IMG/VR virus record: IMGVR_UViG_2695421015_000002 | Direction: 5' to 3' (one strand) | Source: a virus | Lineage: Duplodnaviria; Caudoviricetes | Length of the DNA: 64,000 bases | In this document: positions 14,239 through 59,156 of the stretch, one piece after another | Layout: every line of letters starts with the position of its first letter | How positions within the stretch are numbered: position 1 is the stretch's first letter | Program-made: the position numbers and the translations under genes | The notes under the pieces: generated by a model | What the model was told of the DNA's origin: nothing | Seen by the model: the letters and a program-made list of their open reading frames with translations, nothing else | The model's database searches: none

Positions 14239-14958
14239 ATGGAACTGGCGCTACAAATGAAATCCCCAAAGGCTCAGACGCCCAAGCAGGTCGTCATTGA
14301 GTGGATCGATCACATCCTCGACCGCAAGCGGTGGAACGGTACCGAGCTTGCCAGGAAGTCGGGATTGGCTCCATCAACGCTTCTTCGGTTACTCAATGAT
14401 CCTGATCACCCGTTCGTTCCTTCGATGAAGACGCTTCAGAAGGTCGCTGACGGGTCGGGCATCCCGATTACCAAGAAGGTTCTGGAAGCAATTGGAGCCG
14501 ACGCTGAGGAGGCCGCAGACCTTACTACCGAAGGTGCGGCCCGCCGCAGCTCAGCACGACCCGCTGCTCGAACCGCAACCGTCGAGTTAAAGCATGTGTC
14601 GGCTTTGCCTGCATCTCTTCAGGCGGCTGCCGGATCGAGGCGAGACGGATATGTCCCGGCTCCTCCGCAGCTCGATGGAGACGAGACGGCATTCGCGTTC
14701 CATATGCCTGACGACTCTCTTTCCGACTGGTTCAAGGCCGGATCGCTGATGTTTGCCACTAAGCGCCGCGATCCGATCGCGGGCGACATGGTCCTCATTA
14801 TCACGAAGGACGGCAAGAGCCGGGTTCGGATTATGACCGGCATCGACGAGAACGGCCTGAGGATATCCAAGGGAATGTCGGCCGGTAATGAGGAGACGAT
14901 CGCGTTCAATGACATCCAGGATATCGCGATCGTCGCCGTCATAGTTCGGAACATTTGA
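14239..14958 (+). CDS. CI-like repressor (XRE HTH + S24-like C-terminal domain)
   Basis: TELARKSGLAPSTLLR HTH; AFAFHMPDDSL...GDMVLI S24 fold. Confidence 0.8.
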   Translation: MELALQMKSPKAQTPKQVVIEWIDHILDRKRWNGTELARKSGLAPSTLLRLLNDPDHPFVPSMKTLQKVADGSGIPITKKVLEAIGADAEEAADLTTEGAARRSSARPAARTATVELKHVSALPASLQAAAGSRRDGYVPAPPQLDGDETAFAFHMPDDSLSDWFKAGSLMFATKRRDPIAGDMVLIITKDGKSRVRIMTGIDENGLRISKGMSAGNEETIAFNDIQDIAIVAVIVRNI

Positions 14959-17758: not shown

Positions 17759-18108
17759 GCAAACACCTGGTCGTGCTCGACCAACGCGAGTTCCGCTTCG
17801 GCGCGCTTCAGTTGGGTTGATAGGATGCGGATCTGCTTCCGCTTGCGGGCGACGAAGGAGGCGATGGCCTCCTCCTCGGTGTTGCAGGTTCACTGCTTGA
17901 TGGCTGTCAGCAGGACGAACCTGCCGGCAGCCCAAGCGCCCTTCGGTGTCCGCCGATCGACGCGCCACCAGGTGATCTCAATCCTGGGATCGGTGACGCC
18001 ATATCGGTCTGCATCGGGATCGATGCAGTAGGAGTAGCGCTTGGCCTCGCAGCGCCACAGGACATCCGTGCCGGCCGGAGCCCGCCCGAACGGATAGTGC
18101 TTCTTCAC
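17755..18108 (-). pseudogene. Phage hypothetical gene with an in-frame TGA at 17890-17892
   Basis: GTG 18108 overlaps the helicase stop; the frame continues after TGA (TCNTEEEAIASFVARKRKQIRIL...) to a stop overlapping the next ATG. Confidence 0.7.
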
Positions 18109-19679
18109 GCCGCCTTCTCCGCCGGCTGCTGCTTGTTGTTGTCGTTGACCGGCTGGACCTTCGGCATCGGCGGGAACAGCTCGATCAGCTCGCCCATCGA
18201 TCGGGTCGCTGCGACGTAGCAGAGGTTGGACTCCTGCTCCTTCTCCCAATCGAGGGTGGCGTACTTCGACGGGCAGGTGTTGAACCGGTCGAGCCAGTAC
18301 ACCCGCTTCCATTCACGGCCCTTGGACTTGTGGATGGTTGAGAGCGTCAGGATGCCGGCGACGTTGTCGGCGAAGATGTTGTCGATGTAGGCTACCACCG
18401 CTTGGACTGTGTCCTGCTTGTCCTCACGGCAAGCGTCCATGATGACCTTCAGCGTCTCGAACTTGTCCTCAGCCTCCTGGACCTTGGCCATCTTCTTGCG
18501 CGGCAGCCACTTCTCCTTCTCGCGCTCGACCCACTCTTCGAGCTTCTCTTCGAGATCGGCCGTGGTCTGGCAGGACTTCCAACGGGTCGCCAGCTTCTTC
18601 AGCGCCTCGCCGATATCGCGCCCCTCGATCCGGCAGGGGATCTTCTCCCTGATCAGACGGAAGGCTGCGGTCACCAGCGGCCGGGTGTTGCGGCACAGGA
18701 TTGCCGCATCAGCGTTTAGCTTCTCCCGGTTCTGCATCATCTGCTCGAATGTCTCCAGCGAGATGGTGCCGGCCGGAGCGGACTCGTGCGCCTGGATGTG
18801 GCTGACCCAGTTCTGGGCAAACTTCACCACGTTCTTCGGGCACCGATAGGTCACCGTCAGCGGCATTTCCTTCGCTTTGAAGGTGTCCTTGATGATGTCG
18901 AGGCTGTCGTTGTCGGCGCCAGTGAAGCCGTAGATCGCCTGGTGGGGATCACCGACCGCGAACAGGCGGGCATTGTGCTTCATCAGGCACGCGGCCAGTA
19001 AACGACGGATCGTGTTGGTGTCCTGCGCCTCGTCGATGATGACGTTGTCGTAGGTGAAGAACCTGATCTGGTAGAGCAGGGGAAGGTAGATCATGTCATC
19101 GAAGTCGATGATCACAGACTCCTTGTTGGACTCCTTCAGGACCTCGATCGCCATGTCGACGATGTCGTCGGCCTTCTTCGCGGTCTGCTCGTCATCGAAC
19201 AGGTCGAAGTGCTCGACGATGTCATCCCAGATCGAGGTATCGTCGATATGGCCCTGACCGATGATGCCGACGCCATTCTGCTTGGCGAGCGAGACCAGCT
19301 GGCAGATCACCGCGGTGTGCGGCTGCAGCTCGGGGCCGATGCGACCGGACTCGATCCAGGAGCTGGTGATGTTGGCCACCTTGTCCTGCACGACGCGGAC
19401 GTTCGGAAAGGTCTTGCGGTAGTTCCGCAGGCCGATCGCGTGGACGGTAGAGGCTTCGGCCTTCTTCCAGTCGACGCCGGCCTTCTGCAGCTTGCTCTTG
19501 ATCTCCTCGGCGATCTTCTTGTTGAAGGCCAGGATGATCGAGGAACCGCGCATCTTCTGCACGGCCTGCAGGATCGTGGTGGTCTTGCCGGCGCCGGCCA
19601 CCGCCACCAGGACGATGGAGCTGGTTCCGGACTTTGCTTCTTCGATGAACGCCGCCTGTTGCGGCGATGGGACGAACAT
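18105..19679 (-). CDS. UvrD/Rep-like SF1 DNA helicase
   Basis: AVAGAGKTT, IDEAQD, VGDPHQAIYGF, TYRC, STIHKSKGRE, YVAATR. Confidence 0.93.
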   Translation of the reverse strand: MFVPSPQQAAFIEEAKSGTSSIVLVAVAGAGKTTTILQAVQKMRGSSIILAFNKKIAEEIKSKLQKAGVDWKKAEASTVHAIGLRNYRKTFPNVRVVQDKVANITSSWIESGRIGPELQPHTAVICQLVSLAKQNGVGIIGQGHIDDTSIWDDIVEHFDLFDDEQTAKKADDIVDMAIEVLKESNKESVIIDFDDMIYLPLLYQIRFFTYDNVIIDEAQDTNTIRRLLAACLMKHNARLFAVGDPHQAIYGFTGADNDSLDIIKDTFKAKEMPLTVTYRCPKNVVKFAQNWVSHIQAHESAPAGTISLETFEQMMQNREKLNADAAILCRNTRPLVTAAFRLIREKIPCRIEGRDIGEALKKLATRWKSCQTTADLEEKLEEWVEREKEKWLPRKKMAKVQEAEDKFETLKVIMDACREDKQDTVQAVVAYIDNIFADNVAGILTLSTIHKSKGREWKRVYWLDRFNTCPSKYATLDWEKEQESNLCYVAATRSMGELIELFPPMPKVQPVNDNNKQQPAEKAA

Positions 19680-19812
19680 GGATCACCTTTCGAATTGGGA
19701 TGGATCAGGACTAGCAGTGCGTTTGCATTCAAGCAAACAAAAGGCTGGAAAAATGCAAATACGCCTGTTCCGCGTGCAAGGGCGTGAACTCGTAAATCAA
19801 TGGCGTTGGTGA

Positions 19813-19882
19813 ACTCCGCTTTGGTGCGCATTACGGACTCAAGTCGGACATTGCGCGATGTCCGAAAAGTGCCAGCAGACAT
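19813..19882. repeat. Palindromic border repeat of cargo block 1
   Basis: ACTCCGC...CGGAC, perfect hairpin TCGGACAT-N6-ATGTCCGA, then GTGCCA. Confidence 0.55.
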
Positions 19883-19977
19883 CGCGCCTAATCGCTCAAG
19901 TTTTATGGAAAGCGGACAATCGACCTGACGCGCGGGGGAGTTGCCGCGAGTAGTGGAGGTGAGTAGTAGCATCGACC

Positions 19978-21093
19978 TTAGCGCTGCAACAAAGGATCGG
20001 GAGCCGGCAAGCTTCGAAGCTTCTCTAACTCAACGTTCACAAGTTGCCGATATTCGTCATAGACGCCCGGTTCTAGTTCCCTCCCGGAACTCCTAATTTC
20101 GTTCTCGAACAAGGTCTTGATCCCCGCCGTTGCTGCGAGCCAACTCAGTTTTTCAATGCACACTTCGTTGTAGAAGGCGCGAGGGCATACAGATTGTATC
20201 GCATGAAGGCACTGGACAATCTTGTCCGGCGACTTTGAACCCAAAGACACAACGAAGTTAGTTAATATCTTTCCTCGACTTGGATTGCTTATCGTTCCAG
20301 AAAGGACGACTCTGTCCCTCTGCATTTTGAAAAGGCTATAAACAAAGAGCTCATGATAAACATCTTGTACGTCGTCTTGCTTCAGCATGCTCATCAGCTG
20401 CGGCATAAACATTTTCGATAGGCTATCGATCAGGAGGATCTCATGCGGATCAAGGTTTGTTGAGAGGGCGCAGAACGCAGACTCGAAGAAGAGATCGAAA
20501 TTCCCCCATAACGCGGACTTACCGACAATTATGAGCAATGCCGGGGCAATCCAGCTAGCTGCCGCGGCGTGCTGGCCAAAGTCCGTAGAATAAATGTACC
20601 GGTGAGTGAGCACGTAGCACTGCTCAACGTTAAAATCGTACGCCCTCTTGTAAAAGGAGGGCCAAGAATCACTCGTAAGAGTTGGCAACTTACTGCGGCC
20701 TGCCATGTAAAGAATGAATTTGTCTTCACAGTCGAGAAACTTTGGCCGGTCGGGAATAAGCCGCCTCACTCGCGCGAATTCATCTAGCCATATTTCGTAA
20801 AACTGGATGCGTTCTATGTAGTTGGAAAGAGCTGCATACGGATACAGTAATTCCGCGATCCTTAGCGAGTTGTCAGCCAATGATATTTGATGTGAGCTAT
20901 TCAGCTGTTTTTCGAGGAGGGCGACAACGGCATCAAGCCGACTGTCCTGCCTTGAACCGAGCAGGTGCAGCGCGCGAGCAATAATAGCCGACTCGCAGAG
21001 GAACTTATCTCGCGCGCCAGCACCTGTCACACCGCCGTTCAATCCGTCTCGGACCAACCGGAAGAACGGCAAATCGTCCGATGGATCAGTCAC
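19978..21093 (-). CDS. Lower-GC cargo protein, helical, with a YxLTHxxxYxTDFG motif (DUF6895-like from memory)
   Basis: GTG 21093 starts just after the upstream peptide stop; about 371 aa. Confidence 0.7.
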   Translation of the reverse strand: MTDPSDDLPFFRLVRDGLNGGVTGAGARDKFLCESAIIARALHLLGSRQDSRLDAVVALLEKQLNSSHQISLADNSLRIAELLYPYAALSNYIERIQFYEIWLDEFARVRRLIPDRPKFLDCEDKFILYMAGRSKLPTLTSDSWPSFYKRAYDFNVEQCYVLTHRYIYSTDFGQHAAAASWIAPALLIIVGKSALWGNFDLFFESAFCALSTNLDPHEILLIDSLSKMFMPQLMSMLKQDDVQDVYHELFVYSLFKMQRDRVVLSGTISNPSRGKILTNFVVSLGSKSPDKIVQCLHAIQSVCPRAFYNEVCIEKLSWLAATAGIKTLFENEIRSSGRELEPGVYDEYRQLVNVELEKLRSLPAPDPLLQR

Positions 21094-21097
21094 AGGC

Positions 21098-21283
21098 TCA
21101 GCTGCCGAAAATAGTGTAGGTCCCGCCGTCCTTGTCCTTTTTGCGGAAGACCCACCAAGAGAGGCCTCCCCGGATGTCATTCAGCCGCTCGGAAATGCGC
21201 ATGACGCCATCAAGACTCATAAGCTCTTTCAACACGCCACTGTCACTGAGCATTTTTTGAATTTCGCGGTCCTCTTCGGCCAT
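21098..21283 (-). CDS. 61-aa peptide with a double-glycine-type leader
   Basis: GAGGAGGT RBS; MAEEDRE...ERLNDIRGG/LSWWVFRKKDKDGGTYTIFGS. Confidence 0.7.
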   Translation of the reverse strand: MAEEDREIQKMLSDSGVLKELMSLDGVMRISERLNDIRGGLSWWVFRKKDKDGGTYTIFGS

Positions 21284-22046
21284 TTTTACCTCCTCTCGGA
21301 TGATGGTCTCGGCCGAGGCGGTTGGCGTTCGAAGCAGCGGGAAAAAAAGGCCGTCTGAGCCCTCCGCGACCCAACCGAGCAATATAAATCTTAATCCAAA
21401 TCATACTTTAGAGCAACTGGAGTAGGCTTTCGCTCGAGCCGTTTCTGGTTCGTGCGGCCATTCCTTCGTGACGAAACTCAGGTGCACGATGTCTCCGATG
21501 GGTCGTGAGTGCCCCTGCGGTCCCTTCCAGGAAAGCTGATGTCGCGACTGCGCTTCAGACTGGATGGCGGCTGCAACGGCGCTAGTCTGAAGGTGATTTC
21601 ACTGCCTGCCTGTTATGGGCGCGCAGTGGGCCGAAGAGGCTGAGCGCGGGGCTCTCGTGTGGTGCATCTGGGAGCGTTCTAGTTCACGGCAACACTTTGA
21701 TGAGCTGGAGCGCGACTACTGGTTACCGAGCGATAGTCATCCTGAGACATTTTGCCGCGTAATTCCCAGCAGCCAGCACCGCTCCGGTTGGCGGTCGCGA
21801 AGCGCTCGCCACATAGCTGACAGATGCCGCGCGGATATGACCCATTGTGCCAGGCTTAAAAACTGTTTGTAGTCATCGCCGGTTAGGTTACTTCCGCCGC
21901 CAGCTTCCGGCAGGAGGGCGGCTGAGCGTTGGGACACGTGTCGCCGTTGAGCCGCGTTGGACAGGACATACGGTTGGGCCGAACATGGACGAGCAATGCC
22001 ATCGGTGATGCGCCGTGCGTCAAAAATTTTGAATGAGTACGGTGCG

Positions 22047-22204
22047 ATGCAATCCGAATTGATCGGCAAAGTCGTCGTGCTTACCGACGGAAAGGCAGGC
22101 ACGGTCGAGAACGTTTGGCTCGATGAATTGCACGGACTTCGGATTTCCATCGAGGGCCATGATGGAAGATGGCCGTCTCAACCATCAAGCTCACGGAGAA
22201 CTAG
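22047..22204 (+). pseudogene. Small PRC-barrel-like protein, frameshifted near the 3' end
   Basis: MQSELIGKVVVLTDGKAGTVENVWLDE...GRWP; the continuation VSTIKL lies in a shifted frame. Confidence 0.55.
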
Positions 22205-22508
22205 ACCTTCGCATCGGCTGCGTGTTGCCCACATCGCGCGCGCCTTTCAAAACATTCCAATCAAGATGAAAAGGCCGACCTCGGTCAGGAAAGTGACGCT
22301 CATGATCGCGACCGTAAGGAACACGTCGCTCGGCGAGAGAGGGCTCATGAATGCCTCGCATCTTGCGAAGCCCCGCCAGTAAACCACTCAGGCTGGAAAA
22401 TGTTCCGGTTCCATTTCCATTTGTCCAAGCGTCAGGCCAGACGGCGGCCTTCCCACTACTGTTTCGCCTGCTCGATCAGGACATCGAATTTCGGATCGCG
22501 GGCCATGG

Positions 22509-22973
22509 TCAGTCCCGTAGGATATCTTTGATTGAGGTGTTGGCAACGAAGCCGAAATAGTCCTCGTCGCTCTCGACGTAGACGCGCTTGTCACAGTCGG
22601 CATTGTCGACTTCGCCGACCGTGTAGATGCCGTCCGGCGCGTCTTCGTCGCCCTGGACGCGAACCCGGTCACCTGGGTTCACGAGCAGGACTTTGATGGA
22701 GTCCGGAGCCGCATGAGCCTTGTGCTCCCACGCCTCGGACAGTTTCTCTCCGTTGAGAAACAGGCCTTCCTCGCTGAGGACTGCAGCCCCTTCCGTGGCA
22801 GCTTCGACTGCCACCCGAACGTCAGAGAGCTGAACGAGCTGGTCAGCCTCGGCGCTGCCTGACTGAAGCAGATCCTTCACCTGCGTGAATTTCGGGTGAT
22901 CACCGGCCAGGACCCACGGACGGCCCCTGGCGATGAAGGTGATCGAAGTGTCTGTGATGATGCTCGGGATCAT
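22509..22973 (-). CDS. rIIB-like protein (N-terminal part only)
   Basis: IITDTSITF...DHPKF..V N-terminus; directly downstream of the rIIA-like gene. Confidence 0.55.
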   Translation of the reverse strand: MIPSIITDTSITFIARGRPWVLAGDHPKFTQVKDLLQSGSAEADQLVQLSDVRVAVEAATEGAAVLSEEGLFLNGEKLSEAWEHKAHAAPDSIKVLLVNPGDRVRVQGDEDAPDGIYTVGEVDNADCDKRVYVESDEDYFGFVANTSIKDILRD

Positions 22974-22990
22974 GACGGTCTCCGGTGGTC

Positions 22991-25129
22991 TCAGGCAGCC
23001 TCGTCCAGGTCATCCAGGGCGAGTTCGTCTTCTTCCTCTTCCTCCGCCTCTGCCATGCCGGCGACCTGCGGAGCTTCATCCGAAGCCTCGACGAGCAGTT
23101 CGAAGTAGTGCTTCAGCTGCGCCTTGGACTCGCGATCGAGGCCGTAGTAGCCACCCGTCTTCAGGATCAGACCCAGCAGCGGGTAGGTCATGCAGAGGGC
23201 GTTGTACTTGTTCTGGATCGTGTTGATCGGGCAGGCGATCTGCGGCTTCTCGACGCTGACGCCGAGCTTCTGCAGAACGGCGTAGGCCTTGTCGCTCTCC
23301 GTCGTGTTCTGGACGGTAGAACTCAACTGACCGACAAGCACGTTCAGCTCAGAGCGGAACTGCTTGATGTCCTCCGGAGCCTTCGGATAGTGTGGCGCTT
23401 CGGAGAAGTTCTTCAGGTTGCGATCGAGATGGTTCATGTTCTTCTGGTGCAGACCAGTGAACTGAGTCACATCGACCTTGGCCTTCAGCGCTGCGATCAC
23501 GTCCTCACCGAGGAACGTCCAGTTGTCTCCGAGTTCCTGATCGGCAGCCTTGATCAGGATGACCTGGCCATGCTCGAGGATGCCCATCTCGACGCAGGTC
23601 TCGACCACGCCGTCGAAGTCGTAGCCGGAGATTGCTCCACGGTTCGCTTCGATGCGGACAAAGTCGCTGCCGCGACGACGCCAGCCATCAGACGCTGCAC
23701 TCTCGACGAAGTAGCCGCCGTCAGCCATGTCAACGTCCTGGGTGAGGCGAGTGACGCCACGACGCGACACGACCATGGTCCTGCGCTTGCGGATCGTCTT
23801 GCTAACCCGCTTCTCGACCGGCACCTTGAAGGTATCGAGATCGACGACCTCGGGATTACCGAGGGCAGCAAGGACGGCATCCCTGTTGATGCGCTTGCAG
23901 CGGATCCACAGGACCTTCTTGCCGATCAGGCCGGCCATGTCGAAGCGGCCGAGCGAATAGCTCGGGTTGTGCTCGATGGCGACGGTCGCGTCGACAGCCC
24001 AGCGCTGGCGGACTGACATGTCCTCGAACTTGTCGAAGGTCTTCCAGCCCTCGCCGAGCATGCAGGTCTTGAAATCGACCTTGTTGAAGGTGGCCGTCAG
24101 ACGATGACCATGCCAGGTGATCACGTTGTACAGCGCATGGGCGCGGCTGTGACCGAGTTGCTCCGTCTCGTCCTCGAACACCTGCACCGCCTGGAACAGC
24201 GTCTCGGCAGCATCGACCTTCGCGCGGACCTGAGAGATGAAGCTCTGCTCGTAGGTGGCGACCAGGTTCTTCAGCGTGGTCTTGGTGTTCTCGTCATAGG
24301 CCAGCTCTTCGCGGGACAGTGTGACCTTGAGCGAGCCGATCGGCGCATCGAATAGCACCGTGTCGCTGTCGACCAGGAAGCCAGTTGACTCGATCTGGCG
24401 CAGGTCGAACGGATACATCACGCAGCCCATCCGGACGTGCGGGCCATAGAACGGAACGTCGTTGGACTTGTAGCTGGTCCAGCCTTCGCCGGACGACTTG
24501 ATCGTCGGCACCGTCCATTCCATCTCCGGGGTGATCTTCGGCCGCGGATTGAACGACCACAGGATGCCCGAAGCGCGGGTGTTGAAGGCCCGGATATCCT
24601 CGCGGCGAACCGGGAACGACACGTCGATGCCGGTCGGTTCATCGGAGGGCATCTCGGCGAGCAGCCGCATCATCGGAGCGCCGCCGGCAGACAGCGACAG
24701 CACGTAGGTCCGCATCATGCCGCCGTGATAGGACGTCACGTTGTAAGAACCGGCGCCGTCAGCGCCAATGAGATAGGCGAACGGGCTCTTGGAGCCGAGA
24801 CCCCAGCCACCTACCTGATCGTTGGTCGAACGCTTGGTCGAGGCGTAGAGGCGGGCATAGACGTTTTTCATGTCCTCGCCGGACATGCCCGGACCATAGT
24901 CGCGGACCCGGAACACCGGGTTGAGACCGGTCGGGAGATAGACTTCGAAGTTGCCCTTCGAAGCGTCCCAGGCATTGGTCGACAGCTCGCGGATCGGATA
25001 TCCGATCTTGTCCTTCGCGAGACCCGAAATCTGGGCGTAGAAGGCGACTGCATTCGCCTCGAACGAGATGGCAACTTCGTCCTGCACGCCAGCGGCAACG
25101 TCGACGTGCTCCTGCATTCCAAGCTTCAT
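22991..25129 (-). CDS. rIIA-like protein with N-terminal GHKL ATPase
   Basis: IRELSTNAWDA, VRDYGPGMS, STK...GGWGLGSKSPFAY. Confidence 0.82.
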   Translation of the reverse strand: MKLGMQEHVDVAAGVQDEVAISFEANAVAFYAQISGLAKDKIGYPIRELSTNAWDASKGNFEVYLPTGLNPVFRVRDYGPGMSGEDMKNVYARLYASTKRSTNDQVGGWGLGSKSPFAYLIGADGAGSYNVTSYHGGMMRTYVLSLSAGGAPMMRLLAEMPSDEPTGIDVSFPVRREDIRAFNTRASGILWSFNPRPKITPEMEWTVPTIKSSGEGWTSYKSNDVPFYGPHVRMGCVMYPFDLRQIESTGFLVDSDTVLFDAPIGSLKVTLSREELAYDENTKTTLKNLVATYEQSFISQVRAKVDAAETLFQAVQVFEDETEQLGHSRAHALYNVITWHGHRLTATFNKVDFKTCMLGEGWKTFDKFEDMSVRQRWAVDATVAIEHNPSYSLGRFDMAGLIGKKVLWIRCKRINRDAVLAALGNPEVVDLDTFKVPVEKRVSKTIRKRRTMVVSRRGVTRLTQDVDMADGGYFVESAASDGWRRRGSDFVRIEANRGAISGYDFDGVVETCVEMGILEHGQVILIKAADQELGDNWTFLGEDVIAALKAKVDVTQFTGLHQKNMNHLDRNLKNFSEAPHYPKAPEDIKQFRSELNVLVGQLSSTVQNTTESDKAYAVLQKLGVSVEKPQIACPINTIQNKYNALCMTYPLLGLILKTGGYYGLDRESKAQLKHYFELLVEASDEAPQVAGMAEAEEEEEDELALDDLDEAA

Positions 25130-57407: not shown

Positions 57408-59156
57408 ATGGCTGTCATCAAATACCGGAAGGGTCAGTGGTCGATCATTGGCAAGTCCAAGTATATCCCGCTCGGCCCCGGCGGCCCTGGTCTCTCGGCT
57501 GCCACCGCATCCGTTGACGGCAAGACCTATACCGGCGCAGGCGTGAAGCCTCTGTCGACCGTCACCGTCTACGTTGGTGGCGTGCAGGCCGGCACCGCGG
57601 TCGCCGACGCCAATGGCGACTGGAGCTACACCTTCGCCAACGCACCTGCTAAGAACAGCGTGATCGGATGGGATGGCATCATCTCGGCGCCGACCACCAT
57701 CGCGCCGACTCCGCATCCGACGCTGGGCGGCCTTAACCTTTCCGGTGCGACCTTCACGCAAGGCGCAGCCGCCGGCACCGTGATCGGCACTTTCGCTGGC
57801 AAGACCGCAGGATCCACGCTTTCAATCTCTCCGAACGATGGCACGGTTGCCATCAGCGGTGACCAGACCAAGCTCGTCGTCGGCGCCACCGCCTCGACGC
57901 CCGGCACGCGCTCCTACACCGTCACCGAGACGGACGCCGATGCCACCAATGGTCCTAAGACCACCACGTTTGCGATCACCTGCAACATCGCTCTGCTCAA
58001 CCTGAATACCCGCTTCGTCGCGGAAGGCGACAGCATCACCGCTGGCTCGAACGGTCCGAGCTGGCTCTGGGCCTTCGACGCTGCATCCGCCGGCCGGTTC
58101 TTCATGCCGCAGGGCTACAACCAGGCGACTGGCGGCCAGACGGCTGCCCAGATGGCCACCCAGGTGGCGCAGATCACCGCGCTCAGCCCGAAAGTGGTCT
58201 CGCTGCTCGCCGGCACCAACGACCTCGGCGGAACGAGCGACACGCCTGCCACGATCTACGGCAATCTGAAGACCTGCTGGAAGGCCTACATCGACGGCGG
58301 CGCGCAGCACGTCATCATCGCGACGGTTATGCCGCGCAACGATAGCGTCTGGACGGCGCTGACTGCCGCCCGTCAGACTGATCGCGTCACATTGAACAAC
58401 CTGATCAGCGGATATGCCACCGATCCGGATCTTGCCAACTACAAGGACAAGCTCCACCTCGTGAACCTTGAGAGCTACAACCCGGCGACGGACTCGATCG
58501 AAGGTCTGCATCCTCAGTGGCTCGGCGCTATCAAGGTCGGCAAGCTCTTCGCGGCGGTCGCCAACTCGCTGATCGACCAGACGCACACGCTGAACGGCGA
58601 TCTTTATCTCGATGCAACGAATGTTCTGTCGTCGAAGAACCCGGCTCTGACCGGCACCACGGGGACCATGAGCGGCACGGCGCAACCGACAGGCGCAGTC
58701 GCTACCGGCTGGAGCGTATCGGAAAACGGCGGCATGACCGTCGTCTGTTCGAAGTCGACACTCAACGGCGCAGAAGCTCAGCGTATCGTGGTTTCCGGCA
58801 CCAACTCGACGGTCCAGCGGCTGGTAAACTTCAGCGCTGCGGTCAACGTCACCGGCAACATCGGAGACAGCTTCGAGGCCTGCATCGACTTCAGCCTGGC
58901 TGCTGGACACCAGAAGATCAGGGATATCGTCATCAACCACGCAACTGCTTCCACGCCGAACAGCGGAAACCAGTCGTTCAACTTCGACGGAGCGGGTGCG
59001 ATATCTGGCACGCTGCGATCCGCCGTGACGGCTCCGCTCTCCGCGGCCATCACCACCATCACCCTGCAGGCGCTACTGAACTTCGATGTCGGGACAGTCG
59101 GTGCAGACATCACCTGGGGCAAGCCGTACCTGCGGAAAGTGCCGGCCACCATCTAA
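57408..59156 (+). CDS. Ig/cadherin-like domains + SGNH/GDSL esterase, probable virion-associated protein
   Basis: VADANGDWSYT; GDSIT, GTND, GLHP blocks; beta-rich C-terminus. Confidence 0.8.
   Translation: MAVIKYRKGQWSIIGKSKYIPLGPGGPGLSAATASVDGKTYTGAGVKPLSTVTVYVGGVQAGTAVADANGDWSYTFANAPAKNSVIGWDGIISAPTTIAPTPHPTLGGLNLSGATFTQGAAAGTVIGTFAGKTAGSTLSISPNDGTVAISGDQTKLVVGATASTPGTRSYTVTETDADATNGPKTTTFAITCNIALLNLNTRFVAEGDSITAGSNGPSWLWAFDAASAGRFFMPQGYNQATGGQTAAQMATQVAQITALSPKVVSLLAGTNDLGGTSDTPATIYGNLKTCWKAYIDGGAQHVIIATVMPRNDSVWTALTAARQTDRVTLNNLISGYATDPDLANYKDKLHLVNLESYNPATDSIEGLHPQWLGAIKVGKLFAAVANSLIDQTHTLNGDLYLDATNVLSSKNPALTGTTGTMSGTAQPTGAVATGWSVSENGGMTVVCSKSTLNGAEAQRIVVSGTNSTVQRLVNFSAAVNVTGNIGDSFEACIDFSLAAGHQKIRDIVINHATASTPNSGNQSFNFDGAGAISGTLRSAVTAPLSAAITTITLQALLNFDVGTVGADITWGKPYLRKVPATI

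What the first reader, a model, noticed from the sequence alone, without database searches (positions are those of the whole stretch)
19978..21283. Candidate minimal RiPP or peptide-signal operon: double-Gly peptide plus unknown enzyme
Seen: a strong RBS and a 61-aa ORF with an acidic leader ending LNDIRGG (L-7, I-4, GG as in double-glycine leaders) and core LSWWVFRKKDKDGGTYTIFGS. A lower-GC 371-aa helical protein with YVLTHRYIYSTDFG and a later YHE motif starts 4 nt after its stop. Inference: precursor plus maturase (possibly an alpha/alpha-barrel acting on Trp or Ser/Thr) carried as a phage moron. No PCAT exporter is nearby, so processing would need host functions.
Basis: partly seen in the sequence, partly recalled or inferred. 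Interest (0 to 1): 0.7.

Follow-up and report, generated by a model that had tools for sequence, protein, structure and literature searches.

The report
Prophage-borne peptide plus DUF6895 enzyme cassette
A small mobile two-gene unit inside a rhizobial prophage encodes a conserved 61-residue tryptophan-containing peptide and a barrel-shaped enzyme that probably modifies it, which may mark an undescribed family of ribosomal peptide natural products.

Summary
A conserved AGGAGG site precedes a 61-aa ORF (21283..21098). A 371-aa GTG-started ORF (21093..19978) follows 4 nt after its stop. GC3 is 0.58 and 0.68, against 0.82-0.89 in the flanking phage genes.

The large protein passes Pfam DUF6895. 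It models confidently as an (alpha/alpha)6 toroid plus a helical cap.

The peptide gene sits upstream in 7 of 7 related loci, down to 54% enzyme identity, and is under purifying selection. More distant DUF6895 and DUF6902 genes also follow peptide genes, many with tandem repeated short cores.

The pair is a ~1.5 kb mobile unit. Here it fills a variable slot of an integrase-bearing prophage, and it is absent from all phage collections searched.

Best reading: a minimal RiPP-like precursor plus tailoring enzyme. The chemistry may be a mass-neutral epimerisation, since the only characterised DUF6895 protein is (from its title) a lasso-peptide epimerase.

The double-glycine/PCAT reading fails. GG is not conserved, and the genome has no C39 peptidase. 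No modification or binding was shown.

The parts
21289..21294 (-). Shine-Dalgarno AGGAGG, 5 nt upstream of the peptide ATG
   Evidence: Read from the sequence. Invariant in 5 of 5 aligned upstream regions: window, L001, L002, L003, L005.
21098..21283 (-). 61-aa precursor-like peptide gene. Residues 1-36 are helical and leader-like, with conserved SG..L....DG. A linker carries L34 and G39-G40. The C-terminal 21 residues begin LSWW and include the invariant Trp44.
   Evidence: family of 44 peptides; W44 invariant. (dN/dS below 1). (AF2 alone: pLDDT 65.5; helices 2-36; hairpin 44-49/55-60).
19978..21093 (-). 371-aa DUF6895 enzyme gene with a GTG start 4 nt after the peptide stop, so probably translationally coupled. 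Residues 9-261 form 12 helices, an (alpha/alpha)6 toroid. Residues 268-371 form a 5-helix cap.
   Evidence: (PF21836, 28.9 bits against cut-off 23.8). (pLDDT 89.4, pTM 0.89). (Z 10-13.4 to (alpha/alpha)6 enzymes over residues 1-267).
20575..20616 (-). Motif YVLTHRYIYSTDFG, holding Y160, T163 and H164
   Evidence: H164 is invariant and Y160/T163 are nearly invariant across DUF6895 and DUF6902 proteins.
20482..20496 (-). Motif DLFFE (D200, L201, E204)
   Evidence: D200 and E204 are invariant in A1 and A5.
20350..20358 (-). Motif YHE (Y246, H247)
   Evidence: Y246 and H247 are invariant in A1 and A5.
19906..21493 (.). Extent of the mobile cassette: DNA homology of 87-90% to loci in other rhizobial genomes and metagenomes
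   Evidence: blastn: L001 covers 19906-21493, L003 covers 19952-21432, L002 covers 20006-21310, L004-L006 cover 19906-21309. The flanks are unrelated.
19815..19874 (.). A roughly 60-nt dispersed host repeat abutting the cassette. It is not part of the operon.
   Evidence: 23 matches in the host genome. Many unrelated RNA-library contigs match only this piece.

Best explanation
This is a minimal, horizontally mobile RiPP-like cassette captured by a temperate rhizobial phage.

The 61-aa product is a precursor. Its helical N-terminal part (about residues 1-36, conserved SG..L....DG....L) would act as the recognition leader. The segment around the invariant Trp44 (LSWWVF...) would be the site of modification.

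The downstream gene is translationally coupled. It encodes a cytoplasmic DUF6895 (alpha/alpha)6 toroid enzyme whose invariant residues would form an acid/base site (Y160-x-x-T163-H164, D200-L-x-x-E204, Y246-H247).

The most likely chemistry is cofactor-free C-alpha epimerisation (L to D) of a core residue at or next to Trp44. That reaction changes no mass.

Neither a leader protease nor an exporter is encoded in the cassette or found in the genome. The product would therefore stay full-length, be trimmed by host proteases, or be released at phage-induced lysis.

Shown: gene pair, conservation, fold, invariant residues, mobility, prophage location. Inferred: substrate relationship, the leader/core split, epimerase chemistry, biological role.

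Confidence is about 0.6 that the peptide is the enzyme's substrate, and about 0.3-0.35 that the reaction is epimerisation.
For: 1. Adjacency is conserved. The peptide ORF lies directly upstream in 7 of 7 related loci, which are 5 distinct sequences because L004-L006 are identical. This includes L007, at 54% enzyme and 46% peptide identity.

2. Both genes are under purifying selection.

3. Distant family members repeat the arrangement.
- L020 has two paralogous 65-66-aa peptides before a DUF6895 gene.
- L021 has a 143-aa ORF with two ...GPW[YF][IV]... units.
- L041 has a 66-aa peptide.
- A peptide profile searched against 2,536 small ORFs from 22 loci picks the L021 ORF (E 3.6e-9) and the L041 peptide (E 0.016) as the top ORFs unrelated to the sequences the profile was built from.

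4. DUF6902 relatives have upstream ORFs made of 3 to about 12 tandem short units in 6 of 6 f16 loci, and also in L028. Such repeat ORFs cannot be folded partner proteins.

5. The enzyme looks catalytic. H164, D200, E204, Y246 and H247 are invariant across 13 DUF6895/DUF6902 proteins. The model is confident. The fold matches (alpha/alpha)6 enzymes, including AGE-type epimerases at Z 11-11.8 and LanC-type cyclases at Z 9.8-11.

6. [quoted passage not shown] I saw only the title, in two reference lists.

7. Translational coupling and a conserved strong ribosome-binding site.

8. Weak hint of expression. Four contigs from four soil RNA libraries match 20972-21364 with 0-1 differences. DNA carry-over is not excluded.
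Against: - No modification, binding or co-fold was obtained.
- The whole peptide is conserved, not only the leader, which would also suit a small folded partner protein. AF2 gives a helix-plus-hairpin shape, though at low confidence.
- The Pfam score is only just above the cut-off (28.9 against 23.8).
- The epimerase assignment rests on a paper title. That paper was not readable, and its enzyme works in a lasso pathway, which this genome lacks.
- Nine weaker DUF6895-like hits in another class (L029-L037) showed no obvious upstream peptide, and several carry signal peptides.
- No protease, exporter or immunity gene is present.
- No convincing promoter or terminator was found.
Confidence: 0.6

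Rival explanations
1. The pair is a RiPP-like pair, but the chemistry is not epimerisation. The toroid enzyme would instead cyclise, cross-link or alkylate the Trp-rich core as LanC or prenyltransferase/terpene-cyclase folds do, or it would cleave the peptide.
For: The fold search ranks terpene cyclases (Z 12-13), GH105 (Z 13.4), LanC domains (Z 9.8-11) and protein prenyltransferase beta (Z 10) alongside the epimerases. The invariant aromatic residue in the cores (W44; F, W or Y in the repeats) is a typical target for cross-linking or prenylation.
Against: There is no Pfam match to LANC_like, prenyltransferase or squalene-cyclase families at E up to 1. No Cys/His zinc-ligand set is conserved: only C208 is conserved, and only within the DUF6895 clade. 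There is no conserved DxDD. The invariant His/Asp/Glu/Tyr set suits acid/base chemistry. The only family member with a reported function is called an epimerase.
Confidence: 0.2
2. The small protein is not a substrate but a folded partner of the enzyme. It could be an antitoxin, an immunity or regulatory subunit, or one half of a two-gene phage defence or exclusion module.
For: The cassette sits in a variable slot of a prophage beside rIIA-like genes. The operon is tightly coupled, two genes long and sporadically distributed by horizontal transfer. The whole 61 aa is conserved. No exporter or protease is present.
Against: There was no PADLOC match for either protein. Relatives carry 2-12 tandem short repeats in place of a single small protein. 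Peptide paralogues occur in pairs before one enzyme. The peptide-alone model is of low confidence (pLDDT 65.5, pTM 0.38).
Confidence: 0.13
3. This is a canonical double-glycine bacteriocin or signal peptide. It would be cleaved after GG and exported by a host PCAT, with the enzyme as an accessory.
For: In this copy the peptide shows L at -7, I at -4 and GG at -2/-1. L34 and G40 are nearly invariant in the family. One distant locus (L020) has a Peptidase_C70/C39_2-like papain-fold gene nearby.
Against: GG is lost in P0062, P0067 and P0068. Position -4 is N or Q in the L007 clade. Peptidase_C39 was not found in the complete host genome, while the control matched 7 of 14 genomes. No homologue of the L020 protease was found there either.
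Confidence: 0.04

Closest known systems
DUF6895-family epimerase of a lasso-peptide pathway (Shi et al., ACS Catal. 2026, 16:1757; title seen only in the reference lists of PMC13352647 and PMC13453073; the paper itself was not held)
   Same: Same Pfam family (PF21836). An enzyme acting on a ribosomal peptide.
   Different: There is no lasso machinery here. Transglut_core3 is absent from the genome, and no cyclase lies next to any locus examined. The enzyme has its own dedicated precursor family. The window protein is a divergent member, only 16% identical to the two strongest-scoring DUF6895 proteins aligned with it, L020 and L021. Sequence and mechanism of the published enzyme could not be compared.
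MslH, the epimerase making the C-terminal D-Trp of the lasso peptide MS-271 (PMC10406935; only the search listing and the start of the abstract were seen)
   Same: Epimerisation of a Trp in a ribosomal peptide, without a radical SAM enzyme.
   Different: MslH is described there as metal-dependent and, as I recall, has an unrelated fold. It gave no similarity in any search here.
(alpha/alpha)6 AGE-superfamily sugar epimerases/isomerases (e.g. 4z4j, 8h1k, 2gz6, 1fp3)
   Same: Toroid fold (Z 11-11.8, 252-258 residues aligned). Conserved histidines on inner helices, which would allow a two-base mechanism. The AGE mechanism is recalled, not tested here.
   Different: Only 4-8% identity and no Pfam match. 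The substrate would be a peptide rather than a sugar. There is an extra 100-residue helical cap.
LanC-type lanthipeptide cyclases (8car, 8byk)
   Same: An (alpha/alpha) toroid acting on a leader-bearing ribosomal peptide encoded next door (Z 9.8-11).
   Different: No LANC_like Pfam match, no conserved zinc ligands, and no Cys in this core peptide.
Double-glycine leader peptides with PCAT exporters
   Same: L at -7 and G at -2 are conserved, and the leader is helical and acidic.
   Different: GG and the -4 hydrophobic residue are not conserved. There is no C39 peptidase in the genome.
Prophage-borne biosynthetic gene clusters (bioRxiv 10.1101/2020.10.01.322628, listing and start of abstract seen; the sublancin/SP-beta example is recalled)
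   Same: A peptide-product gene set carried by a temperate phage.
   Different: Only two genes, with no immunity or export gene. The enzyme family was not found in any of 50,697 phage records, nor in the viral contig scan.

Membership tests
Pfam DUF6895 (PF21836) | Whole-protein score over the curated gathering cut-off | tested here: met
   28.9 bits against a cut-off of 23.8, covering residues 10-217. 24 of 25 proteins in alignment A1 also match. A whole-genome scan gives 29.3 bits.
DUF6895/DUF6902 superfamily | Conserved Y-x-x-T-H, D-L-x-x-E and Y-H residues | tested here: met
   H164, D200, E204, Y246 and H247 are invariant, and Y160, T163 and L201 are at least 90% conserved, in 13 proteins spanning both families.
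DUF6895 peptide epimerase (lasso tailoring) | Lasso biosynthetic context (B2 peptidase / cyclase) | tested here: not met
   PF13471 is not found in the 100%-complete genome. None of the 66 ORFs scanned next to eight DUF6895/DUF6902 genes, the DUF6895 loci L020 and L021 among them, matched a lasso family at E up to 1e-5. For L041 only three ORFs, the enzyme, the peptide and the downstream gene, were scanned, at E up to 0.01.
DUF6895 peptide epimerase (lasso tailoring) | L-to-D epimerisation of a peptide residue | not testable with these tools
   Needs chiral analysis or D2O exchange. The paper describing the enzyme was not held.
RiPP (precursor plus tailoring enzyme) | Short precursor gene adjacent to, and co-conserved with, the modifying enzyme | tested here: met
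   Present in 7 of 7 close loci, and in L020, L021 and L041.
RiPP (precursor plus tailoring enzyme) | Leader/core organisation with the leader bound by the enzyme | tested here: inconclusive
   A leader-like helical segment is conserved across peptide types A and B, and multi-core relatives exist. No binding test was possible.
RiPP (precursor plus tailoring enzyme) | Post-translational modification demonstrated | not testable with these tools
   Requires expression and analytical chemistry.
Double-glycine leader / PCAT system | GG (or GA/GS) cleavage motif conserved, with a hydrophobic residue at -4 | tested here: not met
   P0062 has REG, P0067 has QRGNTA and P0068 has AAAANK. The L007 clade has N or Q at -4.
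Double-glycine leader / PCAT system | C39 peptidase-containing exporter available | tested here: not met
   PF03412 gave no match in the own genome, while the control matched 7 of 14 genomes.
LanC-like cyclases | LANC_like profile match and zinc-ligand residues | tested here: not met
   No Pfam match at E up to 1. No conserved Cys-Cys-His set. The fold resemblance alone is Z 9.8-11.
Class II terpene cyclase / prenyltransferase | Profile match; DxDD or zinc site | tested here: not met
   No Pfam match at E up to 1. No conserved DxDD in A1. The fold resemblance alone is Z 10-13.
Phage moron | Lies inside a prophage, is absent from the same slot of a related phage, and has foreign composition | tested here: met
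   Integrase, repressor, replication genes, terminase and portal are all in the window. rIIA, the 154-aa gene and the helicase are syntenic with phage BDU-MI-1, which has other small genes in the slot. GC3 is 0.58/0.68 against 0.82-0.89.
Phage moron | Own promoter/terminator and expression from the lysogen | tested here: inconclusive
   The consensus scan found nothing above the shuffled expectation. RNA-library contigs cover the peptide gene at depth 2-4, but DNA carry-over is not excluded.
Known anti-phage defence systems (PADLOC) | Match to a defence-system protein model | tested here: not met
   No family at E up to 0.1 for either protein.

The most novel reading that the evidence does not exclude
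DUF6895 and DUF6902 toroid enzymes may be the class-defining maturases of an undescribed RiPP superfamily. Its precursors range from single peptides to ORFs with a dozen tandem cores, built on a hydrophobic-then-aromatic motif (EMFSSGS, ELxGPW[YF], LSWW). A temperate rhizobial phage has captured the smallest version. It would make a mass-silent, D-residue-bearing Trp peptide that needs no exporter because lysis releases it, and that could act as a phage-host or cell-cell signal or weapon.
Probability: 0.3. Interest if true: 0.8.

Novelty: new variant of a known kind. Interest (0 to 1): 0.64.

Why it matters
If the pair works as proposed, it is one of the smallest RiPP-type systems known: one peptide and one cofactor-free enzyme in about 1.5 kb. 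It would also give a dedicated substrate to an enzyme family whose only reported function dates from 2026.

The same logic seems to extend to DUF6902 genes with highly repeated upstream ORFs. That points to a sizeable unexplored peptide family in Proteobacteria. One automatic cluster of DUF6895 proteins alone has 2,877 members.

A mass-neutral modification would explain why such systems escape mass-spectrometry-guided discovery.

Carriage by a prophage of a nitrogen-fixing symbiont raises the question of whether the peptide affects lysogen fitness, competition or phage exclusion.

Tried and rejected
**Searches that found nothing**
- PHROGs, PADLOC and NCBIfam gave no family for either protein.
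- tblastn of the enzyme found nothing in 50,697 phage records or 72,556 plasmids. The viral contig scan found none.
- Foldseek against the PDB and against BFVD gave nothing at E up to 0.001.
- A profile search of PDB sequences gave only a spurious Pds5 hit at E 0.0017, so no family structure is on record in that copy.
- The protein Atlas gave no usable hit for the peptide.
- Rfam on 19000-23000 gave only a sub-threshold SECIS_3 hit.
- The repeat search across the cassette found no terminal inverted or direct repeats that bound it.
- The promoter/terminator scan found nothing above the shuffled expectation.

**Steps not available**
- The key ACS Catalysis paper is not held.
- The first metagenome scan, with the wide alignment, failed for lack of a conserved stretch. 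It was repeated with a narrower alignment.

**Ideas tested and dropped**
- The cap domain (residues 268-371) is not a fused version of the extra gene downstream in L020 and L041: BLASTP gave E 0.58.
- The enzyme does not serve a host lasso pathway.
- There is no host PCAT and no homologue of the L020 papain-like protease.

**RNA-library contigs**
Most of the enzyme gene and the flanks had no cover in the four runs laid. This says nothing about expression.

**Literature**
- 'DUF6895' returned 2 papers, both only citing the title.
- 'PF21836', 'DUF6902' and 'PF21843' returned 0.
- 'peptide epimerase' + lasso + 'domain of unknown function' from 2025 returned 0.
- Supplements were not consulted.
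Full report
**What is in the sequence**

The finding lies on the minus strand.
- An AGGAGG site (21294..21289) sits 5 nt before an ATG at 21283.
- That ATG opens a 61-aa ORF ending at 21098.
- A GTG at 21093, 4 nt after the stop, opens a 371-aa ORF ending at 19978.
- A longer 400-aa reading from ATG 21180 would overlap the peptide gene. Homologues start at the short position, so 371 aa is the right form.

The two genes are compositionally foreign. GC is 0.50 and 0.53 against 0.593 for the window. GC3 is 0.58 and 0.68 against 0.89 for the helicase and 0.82 for rIIA.

**Surroundings**

The window is a stretch of a single-contig 9.09 Mb genome and is a prophage.
- An integrase lies at 1-1140.
- A repressor-like gene lies at 14239-14958.
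- RecE-like exonuclease, primase/helicase and replication initiator genes are present.
- A UvrD-type helicase lies at 18105-19679, and an rIIA-like gene at 22991-25129.
- Terminase and portal genes lie at 59.6-62.8 kb.

The helicase is 75% identical in DNA to that of Bradyrhizobium phage BDU-MI-1. The 154-aa gene next to rIIA is 66% identical to that phage's gene in the same position. In that phage, the slot between the two holds eight other small genes. The cassette therefore occupies a variable slot.

**The cassette is a mobile unit**

Enzymes of 83-96% identity over at least 98% of the query occur in records named Bradyrhizobium, Sinorhizobium and Ensifer and in metagenomes. A partial Mesorhizobium protein is 88% identical over 66% of it.

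DNA homology to those loci runs only from about 19906 to 21493, at 87-90%, and the flanks differ. In L003 a fragment of the enzyme gene is duplicated upstream of the peptide gene.

The family is sporadic.
- PF21836 passed its cut-off in 3 of 401 genomes sampled from the order, counting the window's own genome.
- It passed in 0 of 7 other genomes of the genus.
- tblastn found it in none of 50,697 phage records or 72,556 plasmids.
- The viral contig scan found none.

A roughly 60-nt repeat with 23 matches in the host genome abuts the cassette at 19815-19874.

**The enzyme**

- It passes the Pfam DUF6895 cut-off, at 28.9 against 23.8 bits.
- A phmmer search of 1.84 billion representatives found only 20 proteins at E up to 0.001.
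- 24 of the 25 proteins aligned in A1 match DUF6895.
- AlphaFold2 on that alignment gives pLDDT 89.4 and pTM 0.89: twelve helices in residues 9-261, then a five-helix cap.
- Foldseek found nothing in the PDB.
- The exhaustive aligner matched residues 1-267 to (alpha/alpha)6 enzymes at Z 10-13.4. These include GH105, class II terpene cyclases, AGE-type epimerases, LanC domains and prenyltransferase beta.

For helical proteins such Z values show a common architecture, not a function.

Across 13 DUF6895 and DUF6902 proteins, H164, D200, E204, Y246 and H247 are invariant. No conserved zinc-ligand set or DxDD is present.

**The peptide**

Close relatives (80-97% identity) always accompany the enzyme.

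In L007 the enzyme is 54% identical, and an upstream 67-aa peptide keeps the DREIQ..SG..KE...DG....ERL leader, LSWW and a terminal FGG.

Pairwise dN/dS is 0.05-0.77 for the peptide and 0.15-0.34 for the enzyme.

A profile search found 44 peptides of two types.
- Type A is the window's type.
- Type B reads MTDAEKKTAVLVALVKAGIVDL..DG.....LP.DF......LG.S.G.LVG[PR]W[FY]V..., and often occurs as two peptides per contig.
- Trp44 is invariant. G16, L34 and G40 are nearly so.

AF2 of the peptide alone is of low confidence (pLDDT 65.5). It shows helices 2-36 and a hairpin at 44-49/55-60.

**Wider family context**

This is the strongest new evidence. DUF6895 genes in three other lineages follow peptide genes.
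- L020 has two type-B peptides.
- L021 has a 143-aa ORF with two ...GPW[YF][IV]... units.
- L041 has a 66-aa peptide.

A profile of the peptides was searched against 2,536 small ORFs from 22 loci. The best-scoring ORFs unrelated to the sequences the profile was built from were the L021 ORF (E 3.6e-9) and the L041 peptide (E 0.016).

Six hits in one family of the same class turned out to be DUF6902 proteins. All six have, directly upstream on the same strand, ORFs built from 3 to about 12 tandem units such as G[DE]xxx[ML]FSSGSAP or GQG[VT]EMFTSASAPTSAE. L028, also DUF6902, has three GTEL[FLY]GCYT units. Repeat ORFs of this kind are what multi-core precursors look like, and they cannot be folded partner proteins.

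Against generality, nine weaker DUF6895-like hits (L029-L037) showed no comparable upstream ORF on inspection, and several carry signal peptides.

**How it most likely works**

The peptide is the substrate of the enzyme. The conserved helical N-terminal part would serve as the handle, and the segment at Trp44 as the site of modification.

The chemistry is inferred. The invariant His/Asp/Glu/Tyr set on a toroid suits acid/base catalysis. Such catalysis is, as I recall, how AGE-family epimerases work.

The only functional report on DUF6895 is titled as an epimerase that modifies a lasso peptide. I saw that title only in two reference lists; the paper is not held. This genome has no lasso B2 peptidase, so here the enzyme would serve its own peptide.

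Epimerisation changes no mass, so a plain mass-shift test could miss it.

Neither a protease nor an exporter is present in the cassette. Peptidase_C39 is not found in the genome. Some relatives have candidate proteases nearby: a C70/C39_2-like gene in L020 and a convergent S8 subtilase in L007. Release at lysis, trimming by host proteases, or action as a full-length peptide all remain open.

**The double-glycine reading**

L34 (position -7) and G40 are well conserved. However, GG is replaced in P0062, P0067 and P0068, position -4 is polar in the L007 clade, and no C39 peptidase is available. The canonical consensus I compare against is recalled. I reject membership.

**Expression**

Four contigs from four soil RNA libraries match 20972-21364 with 0-1 differences at depth 2-4. 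This region covers the peptide gene and the 5' end of the enzyme gene. The tool warns that DNA can be present in such libraries, so this is only a hint.

**Novelty**

RiPPs, toroid tailoring enzymes and prophage-borne peptide clusters are all known kinds. A preprint on phage-borne clusters was seen as a listing and the start of its abstract.

Searches found nothing in print on several points:
- a dedicated precursor family for DUF6895;
- the repeat ORFs before DUF6902 genes;
- a two-gene version carried by a phage.

The library lacks most subscription papers, including the key one. I rate this a new variant of a known kind.

Noticed in passing
L022-L027 (upstream 700 nt of each DUF6902 gene) and L028:898-1128 on the strand of the enzyme gene (reverse strand of the stored locus; coordinates as printed): Every DUF6902 gene examined (6 of 6 in one family of the same class, plus one in another class) is preceded by an ORF of 3 to about 12 tandem short units (e.g. 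...[ML]FSSGSAP......EMFTSASAPTSAE..., GTEL[FLY]GCYT). They look like multi-core precursors. In the six, the neighbourhood is otherwise housekeeping-like (Exo_endo_phos, HD dGTPase-like and, in three of them, ArgRS; the other three were scanned over fewer flanking ORFs).
   Followed up: partly
window 19815-19874: A roughly 60-nt dispersed repeat with hairpin potential, with 23 matches in the host genome. Many unrelated contigs of soil RNA libraries match only this piece. It abuts the cassette inside the prophage.
   Followed up: partly
L003:3035-3355: A duplicated fragment of the enzyme gene (matching window 20793-20928) lies just upstream of the peptide gene. This suggests recombination at the cassette.
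   Followed up: no
L020:4637-9723: A fuller cluster around a DUF6895 gene: an O-methyltransferase, a Peptidase_C70/C39_2-like papain-fold protein, a 223-aa unknown, two paralogous 65-66-aa peptides, the enzyme, and a further unknown ORF. That ORF is weakly similar (E 0.002) to the gene after the enzyme in L041.
   Followed up: partly
L007:2768-3928 (minus): A Peptidase_S8 subtilase without an obvious signal peptide lies convergent to the enzyme gene, 216 nt downstream. It could be a leader protease or a chance neighbour.
   Followed up: no
window 22991-25129 and 22509-22973: An rIIA-like gene (phrog_612, E 1.6e-85) and its 154-aa neighbour sit in an integrase-bearing prophage, syntenic with the 121-kb Bradyrhizobium phage BDU-MI-1.
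   Followed up: partly
window 57408-59156: A 582-aa ORF matching a PHROG annotated as a lipase (moron/auxiliary category, E 2.3e-67), just before the terminase.
   Followed up: no
window 21284-22508: About 1.2 kb between the cassette and the rIIA neighbour has no convincing gene. A 141-aa plus-strand ORF (21957-22382) has only a sub-threshold PRC-barrel hit and no phage match.
   Followed up: partly
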